64,000 bases of DNA. Origin: Hydrolagus colliei. Taxonomy: Eukaryota. Shown here one piece after another: positions 4,753 to 61,944 of this stretch. Under the pieces are notes generated by a model. That model did not search any database and was not told the DNA's origin. It was given only the letters and a program-made list of their open reading frames with translations. Positions within the stretch are counted from its first letter, which is position 1, and each line of letters starts with the position of its first letter. Where the stretch lies: NCBI GenBank assembly GCA_035084275.1, contig CM068750.1:8804001-8868000 (forward strand), written 5' to 3'. The position numbers were made by a program, and so were the translations under genes.

Positions 4753-5839
4753 TTGCTGTGTTCATTTAATTGTGGAAATATTCATTTTGCCAGTAAGTAG
4801 CCCAGCATATGGTTTTGTTCCAAAGCAAAACAATATCAAATTCAGTCTCTGGAATTAACAACCATCATGTTTTGTTTATAATCGTGATTTAATAAATCCC
4901 AGGTGCTGTTTAACGTCTTCTAGAAAAGATCGCTTTCTCTCTATTCTGCAGCGTCCTGGCGGAGGCAAAGCTGCAGATTATAAAAGCAGTGAAAGAACTG
5001 GCAACATTTTAGTCTCAATGTAAAATATCTAATGTGGGAAACGGCTGACCAAATATGCCGTGCTGTCTGTCTGCAACCAAACTAAAGCTGGGTTTAGACT
5101 ATTGTTTCTTATTTTAGAGACCAGCAATCGTTTGAGTCCAGAAGTGTGGAAGAAAAAACTATTCAGCAGTGTCACTCCAGCCTCCATCTCTCAAAAGTGT
5201 TGTGTGCTGGAGTTTTCTTGTAAAGGAACACAGACTCCCCGCTTTCTATTTACCTGTCATTATAGCGGCAACTGATTTACTTGGAGTTTCACTTTCTATA
5301 CTGCAGAACCTCATGGTTTTGGTGGCGAGGAGGAGGATAAAAAGCAAATTAACCCTAATTTGTGTGAGAAAAGGTGATGGAATGAGTGTGTGTTGAAAGA
5401 CGTACATTATCTCCTCACGGTTTACCATAGTCCTTTCAGGAATTGCAGCTTTTTGTTTGCAGGGTGCAGTTTTGCCGGGTTTCCTAGGTGAAACCATCCA
5501 AACATGTAATACTTGTTTGTTTCTGCAAAACATTTTCTGTTGCTTCAATAAAGAGATTTTTTAAGCAGCTGATGAATTTAATACTTCAGCTGAGACAGTT
5601 CTCTGGTTCTCTTCCAAAAGCTGAATACGGTTACTAACTTTTTAGAAGCATTCGAGATTATCGAAGGGCAAGGCACATTTCATTTCACTAGTGGGGGATA
5701 TAAATGGTACAGTTGAAAAGGAGAAGTCCAACAATTGTATGAAACTAATGGACTTTAAAGGGTGTGTTAGTGTGTTAGATTATGGAGATTTTAGGGGGAG
5801 TTGCAGATTTTTGCAACACCTTTGGCTCAGAGTCAGGAT

Positions 5840-5908
5840 CCTCCCCTGTTAAGCAGTCTGAGCTGCTACCCTACGTGGAGGGCGCTATATAAGTGCAAGT
5901 TGTTGTTT
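5840..5908 (+). mobile_element. L2-type 3' tail stub
   Basis: cgtggagggcgctatataagtgcaagttgttg matches the L2 terminus at 58358-58398. Confidence 0.6.
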
Positions 5909-6068
5909 TTTCGCAGTCAATGTGCACTGCAGCGTACTATGTTGAGTATTGCAGTTTGATTTTTGCATTAAGAGTTTTCCTTTTTACTTCAAATTCGGTA
6001 AAATCCAAAGGAAAAATGATTTGCGGCACCAGGCACTGCTTTGGATACTGCACAGAATCACTTTCACA

Positions 6069-6308
6069 AAACACAAAATACTACAGATGCTGGGAATCTG
6101 AAACAAAAACAGAAGTTGCTGGGGAAAGTCAGCAGGTCAGGCAGCATCCATGGAGAAAGGAAAATGAGTCGACGTTTCGGGTCTACAACCCTTCGTCAGA
6201 GGGGTTTGACGAAGGGTTGTAGACCTGAAATGTTGATTCATTTTCCCTTCTCCATGTATGCTGCCTGACCTGCTGACTTTCCCCAGCAACTTCTGTTTTT
6301 GTTTCAGA
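6069..6308. mobile_element. Palindromic Penelope-like (pLTR-derived) insertion with target-site duplication
   Basis: Inverted arms 6097-6198 and 6207-6308 match at 96 of 102 positions. Flanking direct repeat is CAGAATCACTTTCACA (6053-6068) / CAGAATAACTTTCACA (6305-6320). The Penelope assignment rests on the inverted structure plus the hammerhead motif. Confidence 0.8.
6168..6200 (-). ncRNA. Minimal type I hammerhead ribozyme core (helix I incomplete in this copy)
   Basis: Minus strand reads U-CUGACGA-A-GGGUU-GUA-GACCC-GAAAC-GUC-GAC: CUGANGA box, stem II, GAAA box, palindromic ACGU in place of helix III, and a GUC cleavage triplet. Confidence 0.7.
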
Positions 6309-7494
6309 ATAACTTTCACATTTGATTGCAGGCAATAAAATGCACCATTCTTAATTCAGTGTCCATTGTGCTCAAAATATTGTGCAGTAGAATACATGCT
6401 GTATTCAGCCAGAAATTCTCTCGCTGTCTGCTCAGGCAGATTGTTTTGAGACCAATCATTTTAAATTGTAGCAATATACTCCTAACGGTTACTTGACATT
6501 AGTCCTCGGCAAATAAACTGTTGTATGTTTGAAATCTTTGAGTGTACTCCAATTCTTCTATCAGCACTTCATGCTGATGTGAAGCTTGCAATTTGGCTTT
6601 CATCCAGACCTCGATCAAGTCAACTTTCTTCCATCTTTATCACATTGGACTGCAATATATCGAATTTGAAGAAAATGTAAAAATCTCAATGCAAAAAACA
6701 AATCGCTTTGGCTATCTGGAACTTTGAACATCACTCACCAATCTCTCTCCCCTTTCCCCCTCTCTCCCCATCTCCCCTGCCCCTCTCCCTGCCCCCCCCT
6801 CTCTGTTTCTGTGGGACTTCATTTTTGAGTTTAAGATTTGAAGAACCTGATCTAATTGGCTTGATTTGTGTCCTTTAGTTTCAGTGTTTTTTATGTACCG
6901 TAATATGCTTTTGGCTACGTTACATCAATAATTCTCAGCTTTGTGCTGAATTTTGTAATGTTTTGATGGACCTCTCCATGCAAATGTGATGCAATTCATC
7001 AAGTAACAGAGGACACAGTCATAATGTCTGACCCTGGTAAACTGCATTGAAGCTAAGATCTGCTCAGAGCTCCACCACATGTTGGCATTAAGTTCAAATG
7101 ATGGGACAAAATCAATCTTTGGGTTTGAAACAAGCGCCCGTCCCATCTGGAAACCATCAACTTTGGCCCAAGCCATGTCTCTCAGCCTCATGGGACACAA
7201 TACAAATGCTTGGAATATGCTCTTACCGTTAGTTTTAGATGTATATTTCTGCTTTCTTAATGAGCAAACCAATGATTACAATGTTTTTACCAGTGTTAAG
7301 GGTATTTGAGTTTCGATGATGCCTATTTATGAGGAGAGCTGCCAATTCAGAAAACTTCCCAAACATTCCCTGAGGATGGGATCTTTCTGAAGTTTACATT
7401 GCTACAGAAACAAACCTTGCATTTGTGTCTTTACTGGGCAAAACATATTAAGAACAGATCACATTAAAACCCATTACACTGTTGATTTCGGTCA

Positions 7495-24895: not shown

Positions 24896-25349
24896 TACTA
24901 GAGCACAGTTCTCCACCTAGCCCCTGATTATAATAGCTAACACTTTGCAAGCTTTTTCTCTTTTTTTGTGGTGACTTCAGGCTTGTGACTTGACTTGTGA
25001 TGAGATAATGGCCAGTGTGGATCAAGTTTACATGAAAGATTTACATTTATAAATATTTGCATCTAAACCATATGAGTGTGAACTGCAAGACCGAAAACAA
25101 AGTAGTTTAGTATTCAACAGTTTTCAGTACTTGATGGTCTCCAGTCCTGTTTATATGGTCCCCTCTTAGCACATCAAAAACAATGCATTTTGTTTCTTCC
25201 TTTGAAGTCGAGAAACACACACACACACACACAGCCAGGCCATGCAGTTGCAATATGTGTCAGCTGTGGTTTATTTGGAAATAAATATGTTTATGTTTCA
25301 CAACACATAACTGGCATTTGCAAATGTATTAATGCCATTAACTGTAGTA

Positions 25350-26020
25350 CAGTTAAACCTCACCGAACGCGTCTTTCTCGATTGCGAATTCAACTATACG
25401 CAAAGTATAAAAGCGACACTTTTTTGCATAAAGCGCGTGAAACTTGCATATATGCATTGGCTGGCCCCGCGCTCATGCGCACTTGGGAGGTCAAGCTTGG
25501 TGATGGAACCCGTAATGGAAAGGAGTCTGAAATTTAAAACAGGTCTGGATGGCCTCTTAGGACCTTACAGTGAGCTTGTGAAAGACTTTTGGTGGAAGGC
25601 AAAACTACGGAAAATCACTTCTTTCTTTCAACCTGCCAGTTTGTCTCAACAGGCATCCACTGAAAACTTACCTGCTGCTACATCTTCTCGGCCATCCATT
25701 TCTGCCTCTCCCCAAGCATCCGCTACGATGGAGTTTGAGGCCGATTATTTCTTGGCCTCGGACTGTTATGAGAGCGTGGAGAGCGATGAGAGCGGGGAGA
25801 GAGACGAGAGTGGGGAGATTGGGCCAACCGGCTGTGGCCCACCTCAGTACGTACCTTGCATTGGTCGGGTGTGGATGTGCCTGGAGGCTTGAGGTGGGTA
25901 GCCTGTGGCTGGATTCCCCTAACCCCCCTTTTCGCATTACTTGTTAAGCTTACCAAACGCGATTTTACCGAGTGTGCGGTTTTCCAGGAACGTAACCCCA
26001 TGTACGGCGAGGGTTAACTG
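25350..26020 (+). mobile_element. Tigger/pogo non-autonomous DNA transposon, 671 bp, with transposase C-terminal remnant
   Basis: TIRs CAGTTAAACCTCACCGAAC / GTACGGCGAGGGTTAACTG match at 16 of 19 positions, with TA on both sides. Internal frame MEPVMERSLKFKTGLDGLLGPYSELVKDFWWKAKLRKITSFF plus an acidic tail resembles Tigger transposase C-termini. Confidence 0.88.
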
Positions 26021-42069: not shown

Positions 42070-42360
42070 AATAATAATAACAATCCTTGCATTTGATATA
42101 GCGCTTTTCACGTCTTCTAAACATCTCAAAGCACTTCACAGAATATGCCCGAAAGTGAATTGACTGTATATTTGTGGGCGAAACGTGTCCGTCAAACAGA
42201 CGTGGATTAAAATGACCAATTTATTATTGTTTTTTTCAAGGGATTATTATCATGCGTGTGGAGAAAGGAAACTTGACTAAGGCTTCACCCTGCTGGGAAT
42301 CGAACCCAGGTCTCTCGCTTGCAAGTTGAGTGCTCCAATCACTGAGCTATAGGAATCCAC
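42070..42360 (-). mobile_element. Full-length tRNA-headed Deu-SINE with internal deletion in the Deu core
   Basis: Colinear with 31281-31630; the gcagccaattgcgcacagca segment is missing near 42185. Confidence 0.92.
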
Positions 42361-43094
42361 AGCCTTAATTCTGAAAATTTGGAAGATTGATACACAAATG
42401 TTTGTCTATGTAAGAATTGTTAAACTCTTCCCATAAATTAACAACCATGTTTTGTTTCACAGTATAATTTGATTTTTAAAAACAAAATGCAGAGTACTTT
42501 GCAGCTGATCTATATTTCATTGGGTATTGTTATCAACCGAGAAGTGTAAAGCCCACTGTAATCCTGTGCATAGCTTGTAGCAACCTTTATTCAAAATAAA
42601 CTTTATATGTCAAGAAAAAAAAGATGTGGCCGCAGAGTTAATGAAAACATTCAGCTGCAAAATTTAACATTTGATAGCACTTCAGAGATGTAGAAATCCG
42701 CTTTCAAAATCAGTTCTGCATATCCGGGCGTAATATAAACACACTGATCTATCATACTACAATTGCCAAAAATAGCAATCTTTTCATTAAGTTTATGATG
42801 GGATCTGTCATAATAATGTTATAATGAAGTGTGGATGGGGGGAGTGGGGCGTGGAATGATAGACTCCTTTGTTCAAACTGCTCTCTCCGGTATTTGCAAC
42901 TCTGATTTTCATTTTGTTCCACGACAATTTTCAAAGTAGCACATAAAAATATTGGAACAAAAGAAAAATATTGGGGTGGTTTCGTCGAAAGGGTTATTGA
43001 AAGTAATTACTTTAAAGCATTTACTTGTTACAGTACTATGTTATTTCAATGAATATAATGCTCCTTTGTTAATTTTCACAACTGTTTATATATA

Positions 43095-56396: not shown

Positions 56397-56619
56397 GAGA
56401 GGGAAGTTTCTCCCAGTGGTCTGATCAAAAAACAATCTCCCAAATTAAACTGATCATTCAATTCATGGCTGTCTGTGGGACATTGCTTTGCGCAATTTAG
56501 ATGCTGCATTTGTCTACAAAATATATAATGATTCAATTTTAGCCTATATCCTATGAAGCACATTGAAACATCCTCCCAAAGTGAAATGTGCTATAACAAA
56601 TACTGTATAAGGATTATAA
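56397..56619 (+). mobile_element. Old Deu-type SINE 3' half
   Basis: gggaagtttctcccagtg, gtgggacattgctttgcgcaattt, and tail aaggattata. Confidence 0.75.
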
Positions 56620-56955
56620 GTGGAGTTCTATAGCTCAGTGGTAGAGCACTTGCCTTATAAGCGAGAGACTTGGGTTCGATTCCAGGCTGGGCGAAACCTT
56701 GGTCAAGTTTCCTTACTCCATATGCCTGATAATAATCTCTCAAGAAAAAAATAATAACTTGGTAATTACAATCCATGACTGTTTGTGGGACATTGCTGTG
56801 TACAATTGAATGCCACATTTCACCTACAAATACACAGTCAATTTACAGTACTTTACAGTATATTCTGTGACACTCTTTGAGACATCTAGAAGACGTGAAA
56901 AGTGCTATATCAAATGCATATTTGATAGTCATAATAACATTAGTATTATTATTAT
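56620..56955 (+). mobile_element. Full-length tRNA-headed Deu-SINE inserted at the tail of an older SINE
   Basis: A box tagctcagtgg, B box ggttcgattcc, Deu core, L2-type tail; possible TSD attataa (56613-56619 and 56951-56957). Confidence 0.93.
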
Positions 56956-57529
56956 AACAACAAGAAACACAACACACACAGCTTCTCTCAGTGATTGGTT
57001 GGCTTCATATGAAAAAAAATCTGACTGCCATTTCATTAAGAAAGCGATATTAGCAGACTTCCAAAGGTGATCTGGCAGCCTGGACATCATTTTTCACTAT
57101 TTGCTTATAAAGCAGCCTCTGAGACATTGCACCCAGATGATCCAGTTATAACAAGTAGTAAACCATCTATATTTCGCTGTGCTTCAGTACTGTTTACAAT
57201 AGTCTGAAGCAACTCAACAAGTAAGAAAGCCTTGATTAAGGTAGGAAATCTTATTAAGCATCATTCTGATCAAGCCCATTTGCTTTTGTTAGTACAGCTA
57301 TATACTATATTACAATACGATATTGTAGCTGGACACCAAAGGATGTTAATATTTTCTTGAAATATCTGCCTATAGATCTAATTGTGCGAACTATCCCCTG
57401 ACATCAGTCAGCAAGTTGGGAATTCTGACTCGTATGTTTAATTGTGTGAAGAAAGCAACAACAACAAAATTATATATATAGAGCAGTGGCATGAAGGATA
57501 AAGTAATTACAAAGTAATTAACAAATTTT

Positions 57530-58398
57530 ACAATTGAACGTGAGCAAGACCGAGGCCCTCCTGATTGGCTCAAGCCAGCGCCTCCGTACATCGGGCGCTG
57601 CCAGCCTTAACATCCAAGGCTGTACTCTCCACCTCACAAAGTCAGTCAGGAACCTCGGCATCACGTTCGACCATAAACTCTCCTTCCTCCCCCACATCCG
57701 TGCCTTGACCGGCACCGCTTATTTCCACCAATGCAACATTGCCAGGCTCCGCAACTATCTCACCCCCCACGCTGCCGAAACACTTGTGCACGCGTACATC
57801 ACCTCATGGCTGGACTACGGAAACTCTCTCCTCATTGGCCTCCCCAGCTCCTCCATTCACAGGCTGCAGGTCATCCCAAACTCTGCAGCCCGTGTACTAT
57901 CCCGCACCTGCCTCCGCAACCACATAACCCCCACCCTCGCCCGTCTCCACTGGCTCCCCATCCTCCAGAGGATCGAGTTCAAGATCCTCGTCCTCACCTT
58001 CAAGGCCTTACACGGCCTTGCCCCGCCATATTTAACCGATTTACTCTCCCCCTATAAGCCCACCCGGACCCTCCGTTCAGCAGGACTTGGCCTGCTCCAA
58101 GCCCCCCGCCCGAACCGCCCCACCATCGGAGGCCGGGTCTTCAGTTTCTCCGCTCCCACCCCATGGAATTCCATCCCCCAATCCCTCCGCCTTGTTTCCT
58201 CCCTTTCCTCTTTCAAGGCCGGTTTTTCCTCTTCGACCGTGCCTTTTGTTCCCCCCCGAACTTTTAGACCTCCCCTACGTGTTTCACCCCTTCCCGGACA
58301 CTCCCCTCCCAGCTTGGGTCACACACCTCCTGTGCAGTGCCTTGGGACATCCTCCCGACGTGAAAGGCGCTTTATAAGTTTAAATTGTTGTTGTTGTT
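57530..58398 (+). mobile_element. 5'-truncated, relatively young L2 LINE (ORF2 C-terminus, 3' UTR, (TTG)n tail)
   Basis: ORF 57534-58418: LNVSKTE, VRNLGITFD..LSF..HI, LVHAYITSWLDYGNSLL.GLP, HITP.L..LHWLP...RIEFKIL.LTFKALHGLAP.YL are classic L2 motifs. CpGs largely retained; the RT catalytic core is absent. Confidence 0.96.
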
Positions 58399-59115
58399 AT
58401 GTAATACCAAGATTATGAGCTTCAGCTTTTTCAAACATATTATAATGTTTTCAAGTTCATACACGTTATAATGTATATTGTTTTATTCAGCATTAAAAAT
58501 CTGCTGGGGAAAACAAAATTATACTGGAGTAGGTCTGTGATTGAAAGAGCAAAGTGCTGAAAGCATAAGCCTTTTGTGATATTTGATATCCACAGTGGAG
58601 TAGCACAAGTTAATAATAATTGCAATAAAAATGTAGTTGAGGTTTGTTGAAGGTTGACATATGAATGGGTTTAAGTTTTTTTTGAGAAGTTGTAAGAACT
58701 GGCTCTGAGCTGCCAGTACATTCAGTTCTTCTGAAAGAATCCTCATGCATAATTCCAAAATGAATCCTGGAATATAATTTGAGAACTCCAGACATTTGGA
58801 GAAACCTGTCCTTCACACTTTACTTTTGGTGGCTTGATTTTTGCAAAAAAAATAGAAAGGTTTGTTATTTGATACAACCAAAATGTTTCCGATTCAAGTT
58901 TTGGAAGTGCGCATTGATGAGAGTATTGGTAAGCCAACAAATGGCTGGCGCAGGATGCAAGACCACCTTGAGTGCCAGCTTCATCTAAAGGAATTGGCTC
59001 TCAAACGGCGAAGCAAAATTTGTCTTTGAAAAGGGAATTTTTATTATCGTCCACAGACAGTAGTTAGAAAATGTGAAACATCAGCTGATCGGCTTCAATA
59101 ATAGTAAATGAGACG

Positions 59116-59172: not shown

Positions 59173-61522
59173 TTATAAACACCCACACCTTGACTGATAT
59201 GGCACTTGGGTTTCATCTGACGGTCAACATTCTCATCACCGGGGTTGATAGGGTAAATTATTGGTAAATTGTTTGACCATGTGTGTTCACATGGGGGGGG
59301 TGGATGGGGAGAGGGGGGCACTTCCTGTTAAAGTTTCCAGTTGCTGGATATTGCTGGCATGGAGATGACCTCTGTAGGCAGAACTATCTCACCCTCAGAA
59401 TTGTGGGGGAGTGAGTAAATTTGGAGGTAAGATCTCGAGTAAGACTTTAAAATTATGACCTCCTAACTCGGTTCCAAACAAAGCTATCATTTTTCATTTT
59501 TTTAATTGAAAACAATTGTTCTGATATTTAATGGTTACATAACGTCAACATTCTGCTGTACAGAACCTATTATAATCACTGTTAAACATTTATGGGAGTC
59601 TGCGAATAATAATAATAGCCCTAACCTTGATGGTGATTTCCATTATATTGAATGTTTATGTAAGATTTATAACCTTTTCACATCATAACACCTGAGAACA
59701 GTTTAACAGTGAGTACAGAGAGTATCCAGCATTTGTGTGTTTTTTTTGCATTTTGTAATGAGTTAGACAACTATTTTAGCTCTCTCCAGTTAATACAGTT
59801 AGACATTAAGGAAAGGTTTATTAACTTGCTTGGCACTGATGGGTGGCTGTGCTAAGTTTGCATATTCATAGTACTATACAAACCAAAAGCTGTCCAGGCA
59901 GATGATGGTGGAATGGAGCATCTGTGAAACTTGGACATAAGTATAAAACAAATGGTTTTGTTGAAAATTTACTGAAACATGATATTGTCATTTCTTCCAC
60001 TATTAATTCAATGAACTTTCTCATTAATAATTAATTATTGCATTTTATATGGTGCCGCTCACATTGGATTACATCTCGGAGCACGTAAGCTATTCAGTCG
60101 CCCTTCATCCACTGGACTCTTATTTGTCCTTGTTTTTTCATGCACCGAGCGTGAGATAATGACCATCCAGAAAAAAATAAGGCTTTACAAGTGACTTGTT
60201 TTCCCCTCTTAAATAAGACCCCATACTAACCTGAGTGCAGTGATGTGAAGATAGGAACATGAACGTGGTTGGTCTTCAGGCTTAACCATGCAGAACACTT
60301 TCTGATGATGGTATAAGTTTGAGATCACCCACACCCTGACATGATTTATTTGCTCTTGGCAAGCATGTGAGAGCAACATGTGTGCATGGTCTCACTTTGG
60401 AAGCGCAACGTGCTGATACCTAGTAGAGGGGTTTATCTCCTGGGACTTGACTGCACCTGTGCCAGGAACAAGCCATCATTCTTTGTCTCTGATCAATAAC
60501 ATTTACTTATGCTACACATACATGGTATTATGGGAAATATCTTCTCTTGCGCTTTTCTCTATCTCCCTGTCTTGCTTTCGGTATTATGTTTCAATGCAGA
60601 ACAAAAGAAGTAATTCATGAGGAGAATGATGGTGGTGTGTTTATTTTGGCAGGTTGTTTCTTGTAACGTTACTGTTAGAATTCAAAAGCACAGTTGCACG
60701 TCCTTCTGACCGTATATTTTTCTATTATTTCTCTTTAAACGTCTCCCTTCCTCCTCTCCTCAGATGGGTGACCTTGGTTAAAAAGTAGCATTGCTCCCCC
60801 TTTTTAAGGGGATAAGGTCAGCTACAAAACCAATAAAGTGTTTCAACCGCCAGAGTCACCATCACAACACCTTGTATTTCGCACAATTTACAACACTTTC
60901 CCCCCACCCTTGTTCCTGCAACAAGTAGAATTTTCAGTGTTAACATGCTACCAGTGAAAACAGTCTGGATTTTTTTTGGGTGTGAGGTTTTCAGGGAATG
61001 TGTGTGTCACAGGCTAACTTTGGTTCCAAGCATTTTTAGCCACTATGGCTCTGTGATATTTCTTTGTATCTCCAATATTAATTATGGAAAATGTAACAGC
61101 AAGAAGATGAGCAGTTATAGAACTGATACAACCACAGATTACACTCGTGTAGCACCCTTTAAGTTGGAAAGACATCCCAGGGAACTGAGATTCCGTTATA
61201 ATACACAGTTTAAATCACAATTGGGTTGGAGTAGTTTCAATTAGTTTGTTGGGATTAGCTCATAGCCAGGGTTTCCCATTAGCACAGCACAAACATCTGT
61301 TCATACATCTGCTGTTCCGTAATTTGAATGTTGCTGCCAATGAACAGGCAGCTCTTCAATCTTCAGTTTTCTGTGCAGTCTATTTGCAACAAGGAGTGGC
61401 TGAAAAATGTCCTGAAAGACTTCACGTGGAAGATGTGAAGGGACTAACATTGGCTTCAAGGTTTGGAATCATGTCTTAAACTTTGTCATTGACACCCACC
61501 CTGACCCACAAAGAACAAAAAA

Positions 61523-61841
61523 TATAATAATTAATGCTTGCGTTTGATATAGCGCTTTTCACGTCTTCTAGACATCTCAAAGTGCTTCACAGAGTATATT
61601 GTAAAGTGAAAGTGAATTGACTGTATATTTGTGGACGAAACCACGGTAGCCAATTGCGCACAGCAGTGCCCCATAAACAGTTGTGGATTGATTGAAAATG
61701 ACCAAGTTATTATTTTTTTGAGAGATTATTATTAGGCATGTGGATTAGAAAACTTGCCCAAGGTTTCGCCCTGCCTGGAATTGAACCCAGGTCTTTCGGG
61801 TGCAAGGCGAGTGCTTTAACCACTGAGCTACAGGACTCCAC
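61523..61841 (-). mobile_element. Full-length tRNA-headed Deu-SINE (younger family)
   Basis: Colinear with 31281-31630; possible TSD aaatata (61520-61526 and 61844-61850). Confidence 0.94.
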
Positions 61842-61944
61842 ACAAATATATTTTATAAAACAAATTCCTAATCAGCTCCCCATTAAAAGACATTTTACAT
61901 GGCACCCCATTAAAAAATGTTGCTGCTGTTTCATAAGGCTCCCC

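What the first reader, a model, noticed from the sequence alone, without database searches (positions are those of the whole stretch)
6053..6320. TSD-flanked palindrome with two back-to-back minimal hammerhead ribozyme cores at its centre
Seen: 102-bp inverted arms (96/102 identical) around the spacer GAGGGGTT. Each arm ends at the centre in a hammerhead core. The minus strand reads CUGACGA-A-GGGUU-GUA-GACCC-GAAAC-GUC and the plus strand reads UUGACGA-A-GGGUU-GUA-GACCU-GAAAU-GUU. Established: Penelope-like retroelements carry minimal type I hammerheads in their pLTRs, with helix III reduced to a short palindrome that permits dimeric cleavage, and they often insert with an inverted, truncated pLTR copy. 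Inference: this is a non-coding ribozyme-bearing insertion of about 240 bp, either a solo pLTR product or a member of a short non-autonomous, retrozyme-like family mobilised by Penelope. The 5' strand of helix I is missing in this copy and the long hairpin would compete with ribozyme folding, so activity is not assured. Hammerheads in Penelope elements are already known, so novelty would lie in a palindromic unit that moves independently.
Basis: partly seen in the sequence, partly recalled or inferred. Interest (0 to 1): 0.75.

Follow-up and report, generated by a model that had tools for sequence, protein, structure and literature searches.

The report
Fold-back Penelope-end stump, decayed hammerheads
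This 250-base mirror-image sequence is one copy of a very abundant repeat that is likely the cut-short end of a Penelope-like jumping gene, and its two ribozyme motifs are incomplete and predicted to be locked in a hairpin, so it is likely an ordinary, inactive insertion.

Summary
The arms are 104 bp (97 of 104 paired) around a 4-nt GGGG loop. A one-sided 28-31 nt extension at 6066/6069-6096 matches the published Penelope 'tail', and the 16-bp direct repeat is unique in the window.

Contigs of four public runs show the arm belongs to a huge repeat family, with depth about 35,000-60,000 times the unique flanks. Only 0.2-0.4% of the depth at the hammerhead crosses a centre like this one, and those centres differ from one another at about single-locus depth. 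So the palindrome was most likely built at insertion and does not move as a unit.

Neither core passes the published minimal-hammerhead descriptor: helix I is lost, and the plus copy has U at C3. The cores lie on opposite strands, so no cis dimer can form, and the hairpin buries helix II.

Inverted pLTR + tail + TSD and opposite-strand hammerhead pairs are published for Penelope-like elements. No link to an RT/GIY-YIG ORF could be tested. The scan reported the same pattern on other DNA before. Ordinary; interest low.

The parts
6053..6068 (+). Left copy of the likely target-site duplication (CAGAATCACTTTCACA); its last 3 nt may overlap the family's 3' end
   Evidence: loose ends pile up before 6066 and 6068 (table 7)
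6069..6096 (-). One-sided 28-nt extension (31 nt if counted from 6066), matching the PLE 'tail'; 3' end of the family on the minus strand
   Evidence: sequence; family depth and loose ends; tail of 30-40 bp in PMC8557442, 31 bp in PMC3846280
6084..6100 (-). Small predicted stem-loop (5 bp, 7-nt loop) straddling the arm end and the tail
   Evidence: RNAfold
6097..6200 (-). Left arm: 5'-truncated pLTR-like segment, sense on the minus strand
   Evidence: high-copy family
6167..6200 (-). Minimal hammerhead core: C3 at 6199, helix II 6191-6187 with 6183-6179, cleavage-site nucleotide 6171, helix I 3' strand 6170-6167. Only 1 bp of helix I can form.
   Evidence: core passes, full descriptor fails
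6201..6204 (.). 4-nt loop GGGG at the inversion junction
6205..6308 (+). Right arm: inverted, tail-less copy, sense on the plus strand
6205..6238 (+). Decayed hammerhead core: U at position 3 (6206), G-U at the base of helix II (6226), U at 15.2 (6231), 1 bp of helix I
   Evidence: helix II probability below 0.01 even in the isolated arm
6305..6320 (+). Right copy of the likely target-site duplication (15 of 16); first 4 nt shared with the arm end (microhomology)

Best explanation
This is one copy of a very abundant hammerhead-bearing repeat, likely the 3' end (pLTR plus tail) of a Penelope-like retroelement, whose inverted second half was likely made during this insertion and whose ribozyme motifs are predicted to be inactive. 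SHOWN: the anatomy (direct repeat, one-sided tail, two head-to-head arms ending at the same nucleotide just 5' of CUGA, 4-nt loop); the very high family depth; rare and varied centres; failure of both cores on the full descriptor. INFERRED: a PLE RT/GIY-YIG protein made staggered nicks 12-16 nt apart in an AT-rich target. The top-strand 3' end primed cDNA at the distal start (tail end, 6066-6069). The bottom-strand 3' end primed at the proximal, tail-less start (about 6097-6101), helped by 4 nt of microhomology. Both cDNAs stopped at the 5' edge of the hammerhead and were joined head to head. I put this two-primer route at about 55% within the built-at-insertion class, and fold-back self-priming of one cDNA at about 45%. 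The template was uncleaved RNA, because the core and the sequence past the cleavage site are continuous. Any transcript through the locus makes the antisense arm first and folds into a duplex of about 100 bp.
For: Family: 22,364 contigs of run X1 lie on the stretch; summed depth at 6094/6128/6171 is about 55,600/59,500/34,600 times the unique flank (the tool warns this is not a copy number). The family's majority letters restore a PLE-type minimal hammerhead: the loose-end majority behind 6200 begins ACTG in 4 of 4 runs, giving a 4-bp helix I (AGUU with GACU), C3, and palindromic ACGU for helix III. This fits the published consensus and descriptor. Centres: depth crossing 6201 is 0.23, 0.22, 0.37 and 0.22% of that at 6171 in X1, X5, X6 and X9. 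Centre variants sit at 40-56 depth per contig in X1 (single locus 30-34), 58-79 in X5 (65-70) and 59-100 in X6 (about 30-85). Listed joints include asymmetric centres (6200>6278, 6200>6261, 6138>6207, 6138>6259, 6157>6282, 6169>6249). Two 3' ends: in X1, 11 contigs join another repeat's tail (5907) to 6066-6069 and 2 join it to 6099 (letters between not known for most). Literature: inverted pLTR + 31-bp tail + 9-10 bp TSD (PMC3846280); inverted 5'-truncated copy and 30-40 bp tail typical (PMC8557442); dual minimal hammerheads on opposite strands 100-700 bp apart (PMC4209133). A purified PLE cuts and extends both strands, starts RT at two internal sites bounding the tail, and uses uncleaved RNA (PMC11167929). 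Inactivity: 0 full-descriptor hits; helix II pair probability 1e-16 or less in whole-element transcripts of both strands.
Against: No RT or GIY-YIG sequence is linked: 0 of 244 ORFs scanned in the window hit such a Pfam family, no genome is held, and no relative was found in the collections. The PLE label therefore rests on structure and motif only. Contigs collapse repeats and may under-represent palindrome centres; in an old, diverged family each copy of a mobile palindrome would also look unique. Only 15 of 175 joints, 40 of 104 variant rows and 24 of 1,634 loose ends were shown. No empty site appears among the listed joints, so the TSD is inferred, not proven. In the anole PLE the start site is AC-rich and the pLTR encodes the ORF start; here the template strand at both ends is U-rich and no such ORF was identified. 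Both arms share a variant held by only about 3% of family depth (6128/6277) and end at the same nucleotide, which fits fold-back or later gene conversion as well as two primers.
Confidence: 0.75

Rival explanations
1. A longer PLE insertion (inverted pLTR, ORF, pLTR + tail) lost its interior after insertion, leaving the two outer ends head to head.
For: [quoted passage not shown] The outer anatomy would be the same.
Against: Both arms end at the same nucleotide. Dozens of other contigs cross a centre within a few nt of the same point, with different loops (15-20 contigs per main variant class in X1). Independent deletions would be unlikely to converge there.
Confidence: 0.1
2. The whole palindrome is a non-autonomous unit that is transcribed and mobilised as one piece by a PLE.
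For: About 75-80 locus-equivalents in X1 have a centre of this geometry. PLE proteins can act in trans on pLTR-flanked sequence (PMC3846280). Both arms share a rare variant.
Against: No dominant centre: variants differ by substitutions and indels, each near single-locus depth, and together they are 0.2-0.4% of family depth. A 100-bp duplex RNA would bury both the hammerhead and the segment next to the tail. Asymmetric centres exist.
Confidence: 0.08
3. A MITE-like non-autonomous DNA transposon whose long inverted repeats happen to contain hammerhead-like sequence.
For: Short, non-coding, long inverted repeats, flanked by a direct repeat.
Against: The repeats are not terminal (28-nt one-sided extension). 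A 12-16 bp duplication is longer than usual for DDE transposons (own knowledge). Most family depth does not cross a centre like this one. The family holds a complete PLE-type hammerhead.
Confidence: 0.04
4. The palindrome is an assembly or fold-back read artefact.
For: No listed contig spans the whole element, as expected for a repeat.
Against: The arms differ at 7 of 104 positions. Both junctions are reproduced in two samples of organism A: records 5882-6089 with 0 differences in each, 6281-7000 with 0 differences, and 6282-7000 with 1 difference and 2 gap letters. The right junction is also seen in organism B (6283-6610). These records reach only 21-28 letters into the element, below the tool's 31-letter bridging rule.
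Confidence: 0.02

Closest known systems
EN+ Penelope-like element insertions with inverted pLTR, tail and TSD (Arkhipova et al. 2013, PMC3846280; Craig et al. 2021, PMC8557442)
   Same: Head-to-head inverted, 5'-truncated terminal copy; optional tail of about 30 nt on one side only; TSD of about 10 bp or more; hammerhead inside the terminal repeat.
   Different: No ORF and no direct pLTR pair: the insertion is reduced to about 240 bp. The published examples I read carry ORF sequence. Both arms here stop at the hammerhead's 5' edge.
Minimal type I hammerheads of metazoan PLEs (Cervera and de la Pena 2014, PMC4209133)
   Same: CUGANGA + extra A, G-C at the base of helix II (minus copy), GAAA-CG-UH with palindromic ACGU in place of helix III. 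Opposite-strand pairs 100-700 bp apart were already reported.
   Different: This copy has lost helix I on both arms and C3 on the plus arm, and the cores are only about 7 nt apart. No cartilaginous fish appears among the names in the paper's alignment as I could read it.
Poseidon PLE of Anolis carolinensis, PAc (Frangieh et al. 2024, PMC11167929)
   Same: Hammerhead about 90-125 nt upstream of two 3' ends about 30 nt apart (here 91-95 and 123-126 nt from helix II; PAc main start 111-118 nt); AT-rich target; uncleaved RNA as template.
   Different: No sequence comparison was possible (the GenBank supplement is unreadable here). The PAc pLTR encodes the ORF start and its RT start is AC-rich; neither is seen here.
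Metazoan non-LTR retrozymes (Cervera and de la Pena 2020, PMC7229834; Li et al. 2026, 10.64898/2026.07.22.740005)
   Same: Short, non-coding, type I hammerhead, related to PLE pLTRs, long TSD.
   Different: Retrozymes are direct tandem repeats with complete hammerheads that can dimerise and yield circular RNA. This copy is inverted, single per strand and incomplete.

Membership tests
Penelope-like element (EN+) | RT + GIY-YIG ORF linked to the terminal repeat | tested here: inconclusive
   None in the window: 0 of 244 ORFs scanned hit RT or GIY-YIG families (3 ORFs past 63.2 kb not scanned). No genome held; no relatives in the collections. Absence is expected for a 5'-truncated copy.
Penelope-like element (EN+) | Inverted 5'-truncated terminal copy adjacent at the 5' end | tested here: met
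   Head-to-head arms; pattern described
Penelope-like element (EN+) | 30-40 bp tail on one end only | tested here: met
   28-31 nt at 6066/6069-6096, slightly short of the quoted range; both family ends seen in joints
Penelope-like element (EN+) | Target-site duplication | tested here: inconclusive
   15 of 16 direct repeat, unique in the window; no empty site among 15 of 175 listed joints
Minimal type I hammerhead (Cervera 2014 descriptor) | CUGANGA, helix II of 3-7 bp, GAAANNUH | tested here: met
   Minus core passes; the plus core fails on C3
Minimal type I hammerhead (Cervera 2014 descriptor) | Helix I of 3 bp or more | tested here: not met
   1 bp on each arm of this copy. The family majority gives 4 bp, read tables 3 and 7, not from an alignment of whole copies.
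Minimal type I hammerhead (Cervera 2014 descriptor) | Covariation of helices I and II across the family | not testable with these tools
   Family copies could be laid but not fetched; no alignment was made
Minimal type I hammerhead (Cervera 2014 descriptor) | Self-cleavage as a dimer or with protein | not testable with these tools
   Bench assay needed; folding predicts helix II is buried
Rfam hammerhead families | Covariance-model match | tested here: not met
   No hammerhead family among 3 gathering hits, 5 hits at E up to 10 or 0 hits on 6140-6206
Non-LTR retrozyme | Direct tandem repeats with at least two complete hammerheads | tested here: not met
   Inverted arrangement, no direct repeat of the unit, incomplete cores; definition
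Non-LTR retrozyme | Circular RNA expression | not testable with these tools
   No RNA run was listed to lay
MITE | Inverted repeats at the very termini, next to a short fixed TSD | tested here: not met
   28-nt one-sided extension; 12-16 bp repeat

The most novel reading that the evidence does not exclude
The mobile unit of this huge family is a short RNA of about 135-140 nt running from the 5' edge of the hammerhead to the tail. It is copied in trans by a Penelope-like protein, with its 5' boundary set by the ribozyme's 5' edge and not by its cleavage site. The miniature fold-back insertions then record the unsolved PLE integration step (two primers versus self-priming) thousands of times over. 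Support: 195-280 contigs in each of three runs (51 in the fourth) run off behind 6200 into sequence about as heterogeneous (agreement 0.41-0.46) as true flanks at the tail end (0.38-0.41). Caveat: the pile at 6200 is partly forced, because this copy ends there.
Probability: 0.25. Interest if true: 0.5.

Novelty: new member of a known kind. Interest (0 to 1): 0.22.

Why it matters
As a locus it matters little: it is a likely dead, old insertion, apparently shared with a second species about 2.3% diverged. As a class it has some use. How Penelope-like elements make their inverted ends and tails is stated to be unresolved (PMC8557442, PMC11167929), and a family with tens of thousands of short copies and many independent centres would let junction statistics test two-primer against fold-back models. 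Such hairpins would also be double-stranded RNA substrates if transcribed; Penelope is a heavily edited repeat in lizard (PMC5625713). That was not tested here.

Tried and rejected
Whole-genome search: no genome is held.

Rfam: only microRNA-precursor models matched, below their gathering scores, because of the hairpin, plus chance hits; rejected as a microRNA gene. No hit on the isolated core.

Collection scans for relatives: 0 in metagenomes with the gapped arm pattern and 0 in viral contigs. The 25 + 17 loci from a 20-nt pattern were rejected as chance, since 0 of 42 extended beyond 20-29 nt.

Other copies in the window: none.

Pfam: 0 of 94 and 2 of 150 ORFs gave hits, both weak, below cut-off and unrelated; 3 of the 153 distal ORFs were not scanned. 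No host gene was identified, so intronic versus intergenic position is unknown.

Expression: no RNA holder listed.

Run X9 (organism C) covers only 6422-6784 of the unique flank and says nothing about the insertion.

Cis-dimer of the two cores: rejected because they lie on opposite strands. Co-transcriptional rescue: rejected because the antisense arm precedes the sense core on either strand.

Literature searches for a description of such miniature hairpin PLE insertions in cartilaginous fish showed none in their listings. Repbase, Dfam and subscription papers are not covered, so this is no claim that the family is unnamed.

Look-ups of earlier scan notes by sequence, by place and by a second word set were empty.

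Full report
OBSERVATION. The window is 35-43% GC, repeat-rich and without a held genome. The inverted arms are at 6097-6198 and 6207-6308, 96 of 102 complementary, and fold at z -22.7. Two more pairs (6199 G.T 6206, 6200 A-T 6205) make the arms 104 bp, 97 of 104, around a GGGG loop. The direct repeat 6053-6068 / 6305-6320 is 15 of 16 identical and is the only such 16-mer among 63,600 window positions at that spacing. Its right copy shares 4 nt with the arm end. Between the left repeat and the left arm lie 28 nt (6069-6096) with no counterpart on the right.

HAMMERHEADS. I applied the descriptor printed in the supplement of PMC4209133 to both strands. Full hits in the window: 0. Core-only hits: 1, the minus core at 6199, against a mean of 0.15 in 60 Markov controls. 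The plus core appears only when C3 is relaxed, and each core has 1 bp of helix I. The plus core also has G-U at the base of helix II and U at 15.2. Rfam returned no hammerhead family. In the isolated left arm helix II forms (0.74-0.93); in the isolated right arm it does not (below 0.01); in whole-element transcripts of either strand it is 1e-16 or less. The cores are on opposite strands, so one transcript holds one core and, earlier in the chain, its antisense. A cis dimer and co-transcriptional folding are both excluded by this geometry. Even intact minimal hammerheads showed no cleavage as monomers and low cleavage as multimers (PMC4209133), and the anole one needed protein (PMC11167929).

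FAMILY. Thirteen runs hold the stretch or part of it, none on record as RNA. I laid 4 of them at 80% likeness on 5500-7000. Unique flanks have depth 30-34 in X1. The arm and tail have summed depth about 55,600, 59,500 and 34,600 times that at 6094, 6128 and 6171; the tool warns this is no copy number, but the order of magnitude is clear. Loose ends pile up before 6066 (361 contigs in X1) and 6068 (243), marking the family's 3' end. Joints to another repeat's tail at 5907 enter at 6066-6069 (11 contigs in X1) or at 6099 (2 contigs): two 3' ends about 30 nt apart. Majority letters give A at 6171 (99%, so GUU, not GUC), C at 6237 (92%), and a loose-end majority behind 6200 beginning ACTG in 4 of 4 runs. 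Together these yield a 4-bp helix I and a core that fits the published metazoan consensus. Covariation could not be tested, because copies cannot be fetched. The tables showed 40 of 104 variant rows, 12 of 14 indel rows, 15 of 175 joints, 12 of 110 between-letter rows, 24 of 1,634 loose ends and 32 of 74,701 pieces.

DOES THE PALINDROME MOVE AS A UNIT? Depth crossing 6201 is 0.23, 0.22, 0.37 and 0.22% of depth at 6171 in X1, X5, X6 and X9, about 75-80 locus-equivalents in X1. The crossing contigs fall into several classes (a substitution at 6201 or 6206, a C put in at 6205 or 6206, 4 nt left out at 6201 or 6203). Depth per contig is 40-56 in X1, 58-79 in X5 and 59-100 in X6, about one to three times a single locus. 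Listed joints also show asymmetric centres with different letters between the arms. That is what independent formation at each insertion predicts. Against this reading: contigs may under-represent centres, and an old diverged family would make any unit look unique. I took the idea of comparing centres partly from an earlier scan note and tested it on this data only in the indirect way described.

AGE AND REALITY. Both junctions are reproduced in two samples of organism A with 0-1 differences. An organism B contig runs 6283-6610 from the right arm into the flank with 7 differences, 6 of them listed in the flank. These records reach 21-28 letters into the element, under the tool's 31-letter bridging rule, so they are strong hints, not counted bridges. 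Organism B flanks differ at 28 of 1,230 positions (2.3%) and the arms at 7 of 104, consistent with an insertion older than that split. No empty site was listed.

NO CODING LINK. 0 of 94 ORFs of 55 aa or more starting in the first 20 kb and 0 of 150 ORFs of 62 aa or more beyond it (3 not scanned) hit an RT or GIY-YIG family. Collection scans gave no true relative (0 of 42 loci extend). The PLE assignment therefore rests on the combination of a PLE-type hammerhead, inverted truncated copy, tail and long TSD.

MECHANISM. Shown: the anatomy and family pattern above. Inferred: staggered nicks leave two 3' ends. A purified PLE protein cuts and extends both strands, starts reverse transcription at two internal sites that bound the tail, prefers AT-rich DNA and does not need ribozyme cleavage (PMC11167929). 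Applied here, the top strand primed at the tail end, the bottom strand primed at the tail-less site with 4 nt of microhomology, both cDNAs ended one nucleotide 5' of CUGA, and they were joined. Distances from helix II to the two ends are 91-95 and 123-126 nt, against 111-118 nt for the main anole start. The alternative within the same class is self-priming of an antisense strand, proposed in PMC3846280. It fits the symmetric ends and the rare variant shared by both arms (6128/6277, about 3% of family depth). I rate built-at-insertion 0.75 overall, split about 55:45 between two primers and fold-back. Rivals: later loss of a long interior 0.10, mobile palindrome 0.08, MITE 0.04, artefact 0.02.

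COMPARISON AND NOVELTY. Inverted pLTR plus 31-bp tail plus 9-10 bp TSD is described in PMC3846280. It is called typical in PMC8557442 and appears in a curation guide (PMC8969392). Opposite-strand hammerhead pairs 100-700 bp apart are in PMC4209133. It works like a truncated PLE insertion; membership is not proven without an ORF link. It fails the retrozyme definition of direct tandem units with complete hammerheads. Searches listed no paper on miniature hairpin PLE insertions in cartilaginous fish, but Repbase, Dfam and subscription journals are outside reach. Two earlier scan notes describe the same pattern in other genomes; they are not independent support.

WHAT I SAW OF EACH PAPER. PMC4209133: parts 1-2 of 4 of the text and the whole supplementary PDF as text. 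PMC11167929: parts 1-2 of 4 and the figure text of supplementary file 1; its GenBank file cannot be read here. 10.64898/2026.07.22.740005: parts 1-3 of 5; its supplements were not seen and may list the chondrichthyan retrozyme consensus, which bears on whether this family is already catalogued. PMC3846280: passages and the Discussion. PMC8557442, PMC5625713, PMC4350176, PMC7229834, PMC8969392: passages only. All others: search listings only.

VERDICT. Real, well explained and ordinary: a new member of a known kind, interest 0.22. The boldest reading left open is that a short RNA bounded by the hammerhead's 5' edge is the mobile unit, and that the many small fold-backs could settle how PLEs make inverted ends (probability 0.25, interest 0.5).

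Noticed in passing
window 6148-6179 / 6226-6257: All 6 mismatches of the 102-bp arms fall within 32 nt (P about 0.009). The outer 51 bp are perfect and share a variant held by about 3% of the family (6128/6277); possibly gene conversion between the arms or a template switch.
   Followed up: partly
window 6168-6199 / 6206-6237: 5 of the 7 arm mismatches are G (left) against T (right), so they are G.U wobble pairs in a plus-strand transcript; up to 3 are at CpG sites. Numbers are too small to mean much.
   Followed up: partly
window 6066-6100 versus 6097-6140: The tail resembles the segment next to it (local score 30; 22 of 2,000 shuffles as high), so the two 3' ends may each follow a similar signal.
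   Followed up: partly
window 6098-6130, minus strand: A pyrimidine tract ending in CAG at 6098 looks like a 3' splice site. The family's loose-end majority also puts a CAG at the 5' edge of helix I; in D. virilis Penelope an intron ends at that edge (PMC4209133). Untested.
   Followed up: no
window 5848-5908: 3' end of another very high-copy repeat with a (GTT)n tail. Family ends are joined directly behind such tails at other loci (joints 5907 to 6066-6129), in line with the microsatellite bias reported for PLEs.
   Followed up: partly
window 61509-61846, 56619-56919, 42070-42361 and similar blocks: A tRNA-headed SINE-like family, with up to 12-fold self-BLAST cover. The name HE1-like is recalled, not tested.
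   Followed up: no
window 57522-58418, plus strand: A 298-aa open frame that looks like the C-terminal part of a LINE reverse transcriptase (recalled resemblance); no Pfam hit.
   Followed up: no
window 25311-25892, plus strand: A 193-aa open frame with an acidic, serine-rich stretch and no Pfam hit.
   Followed up: no
window 6743-6800: A pure pyrimidine, C-rich tract with 12-nt repeats.
   Followed up: no
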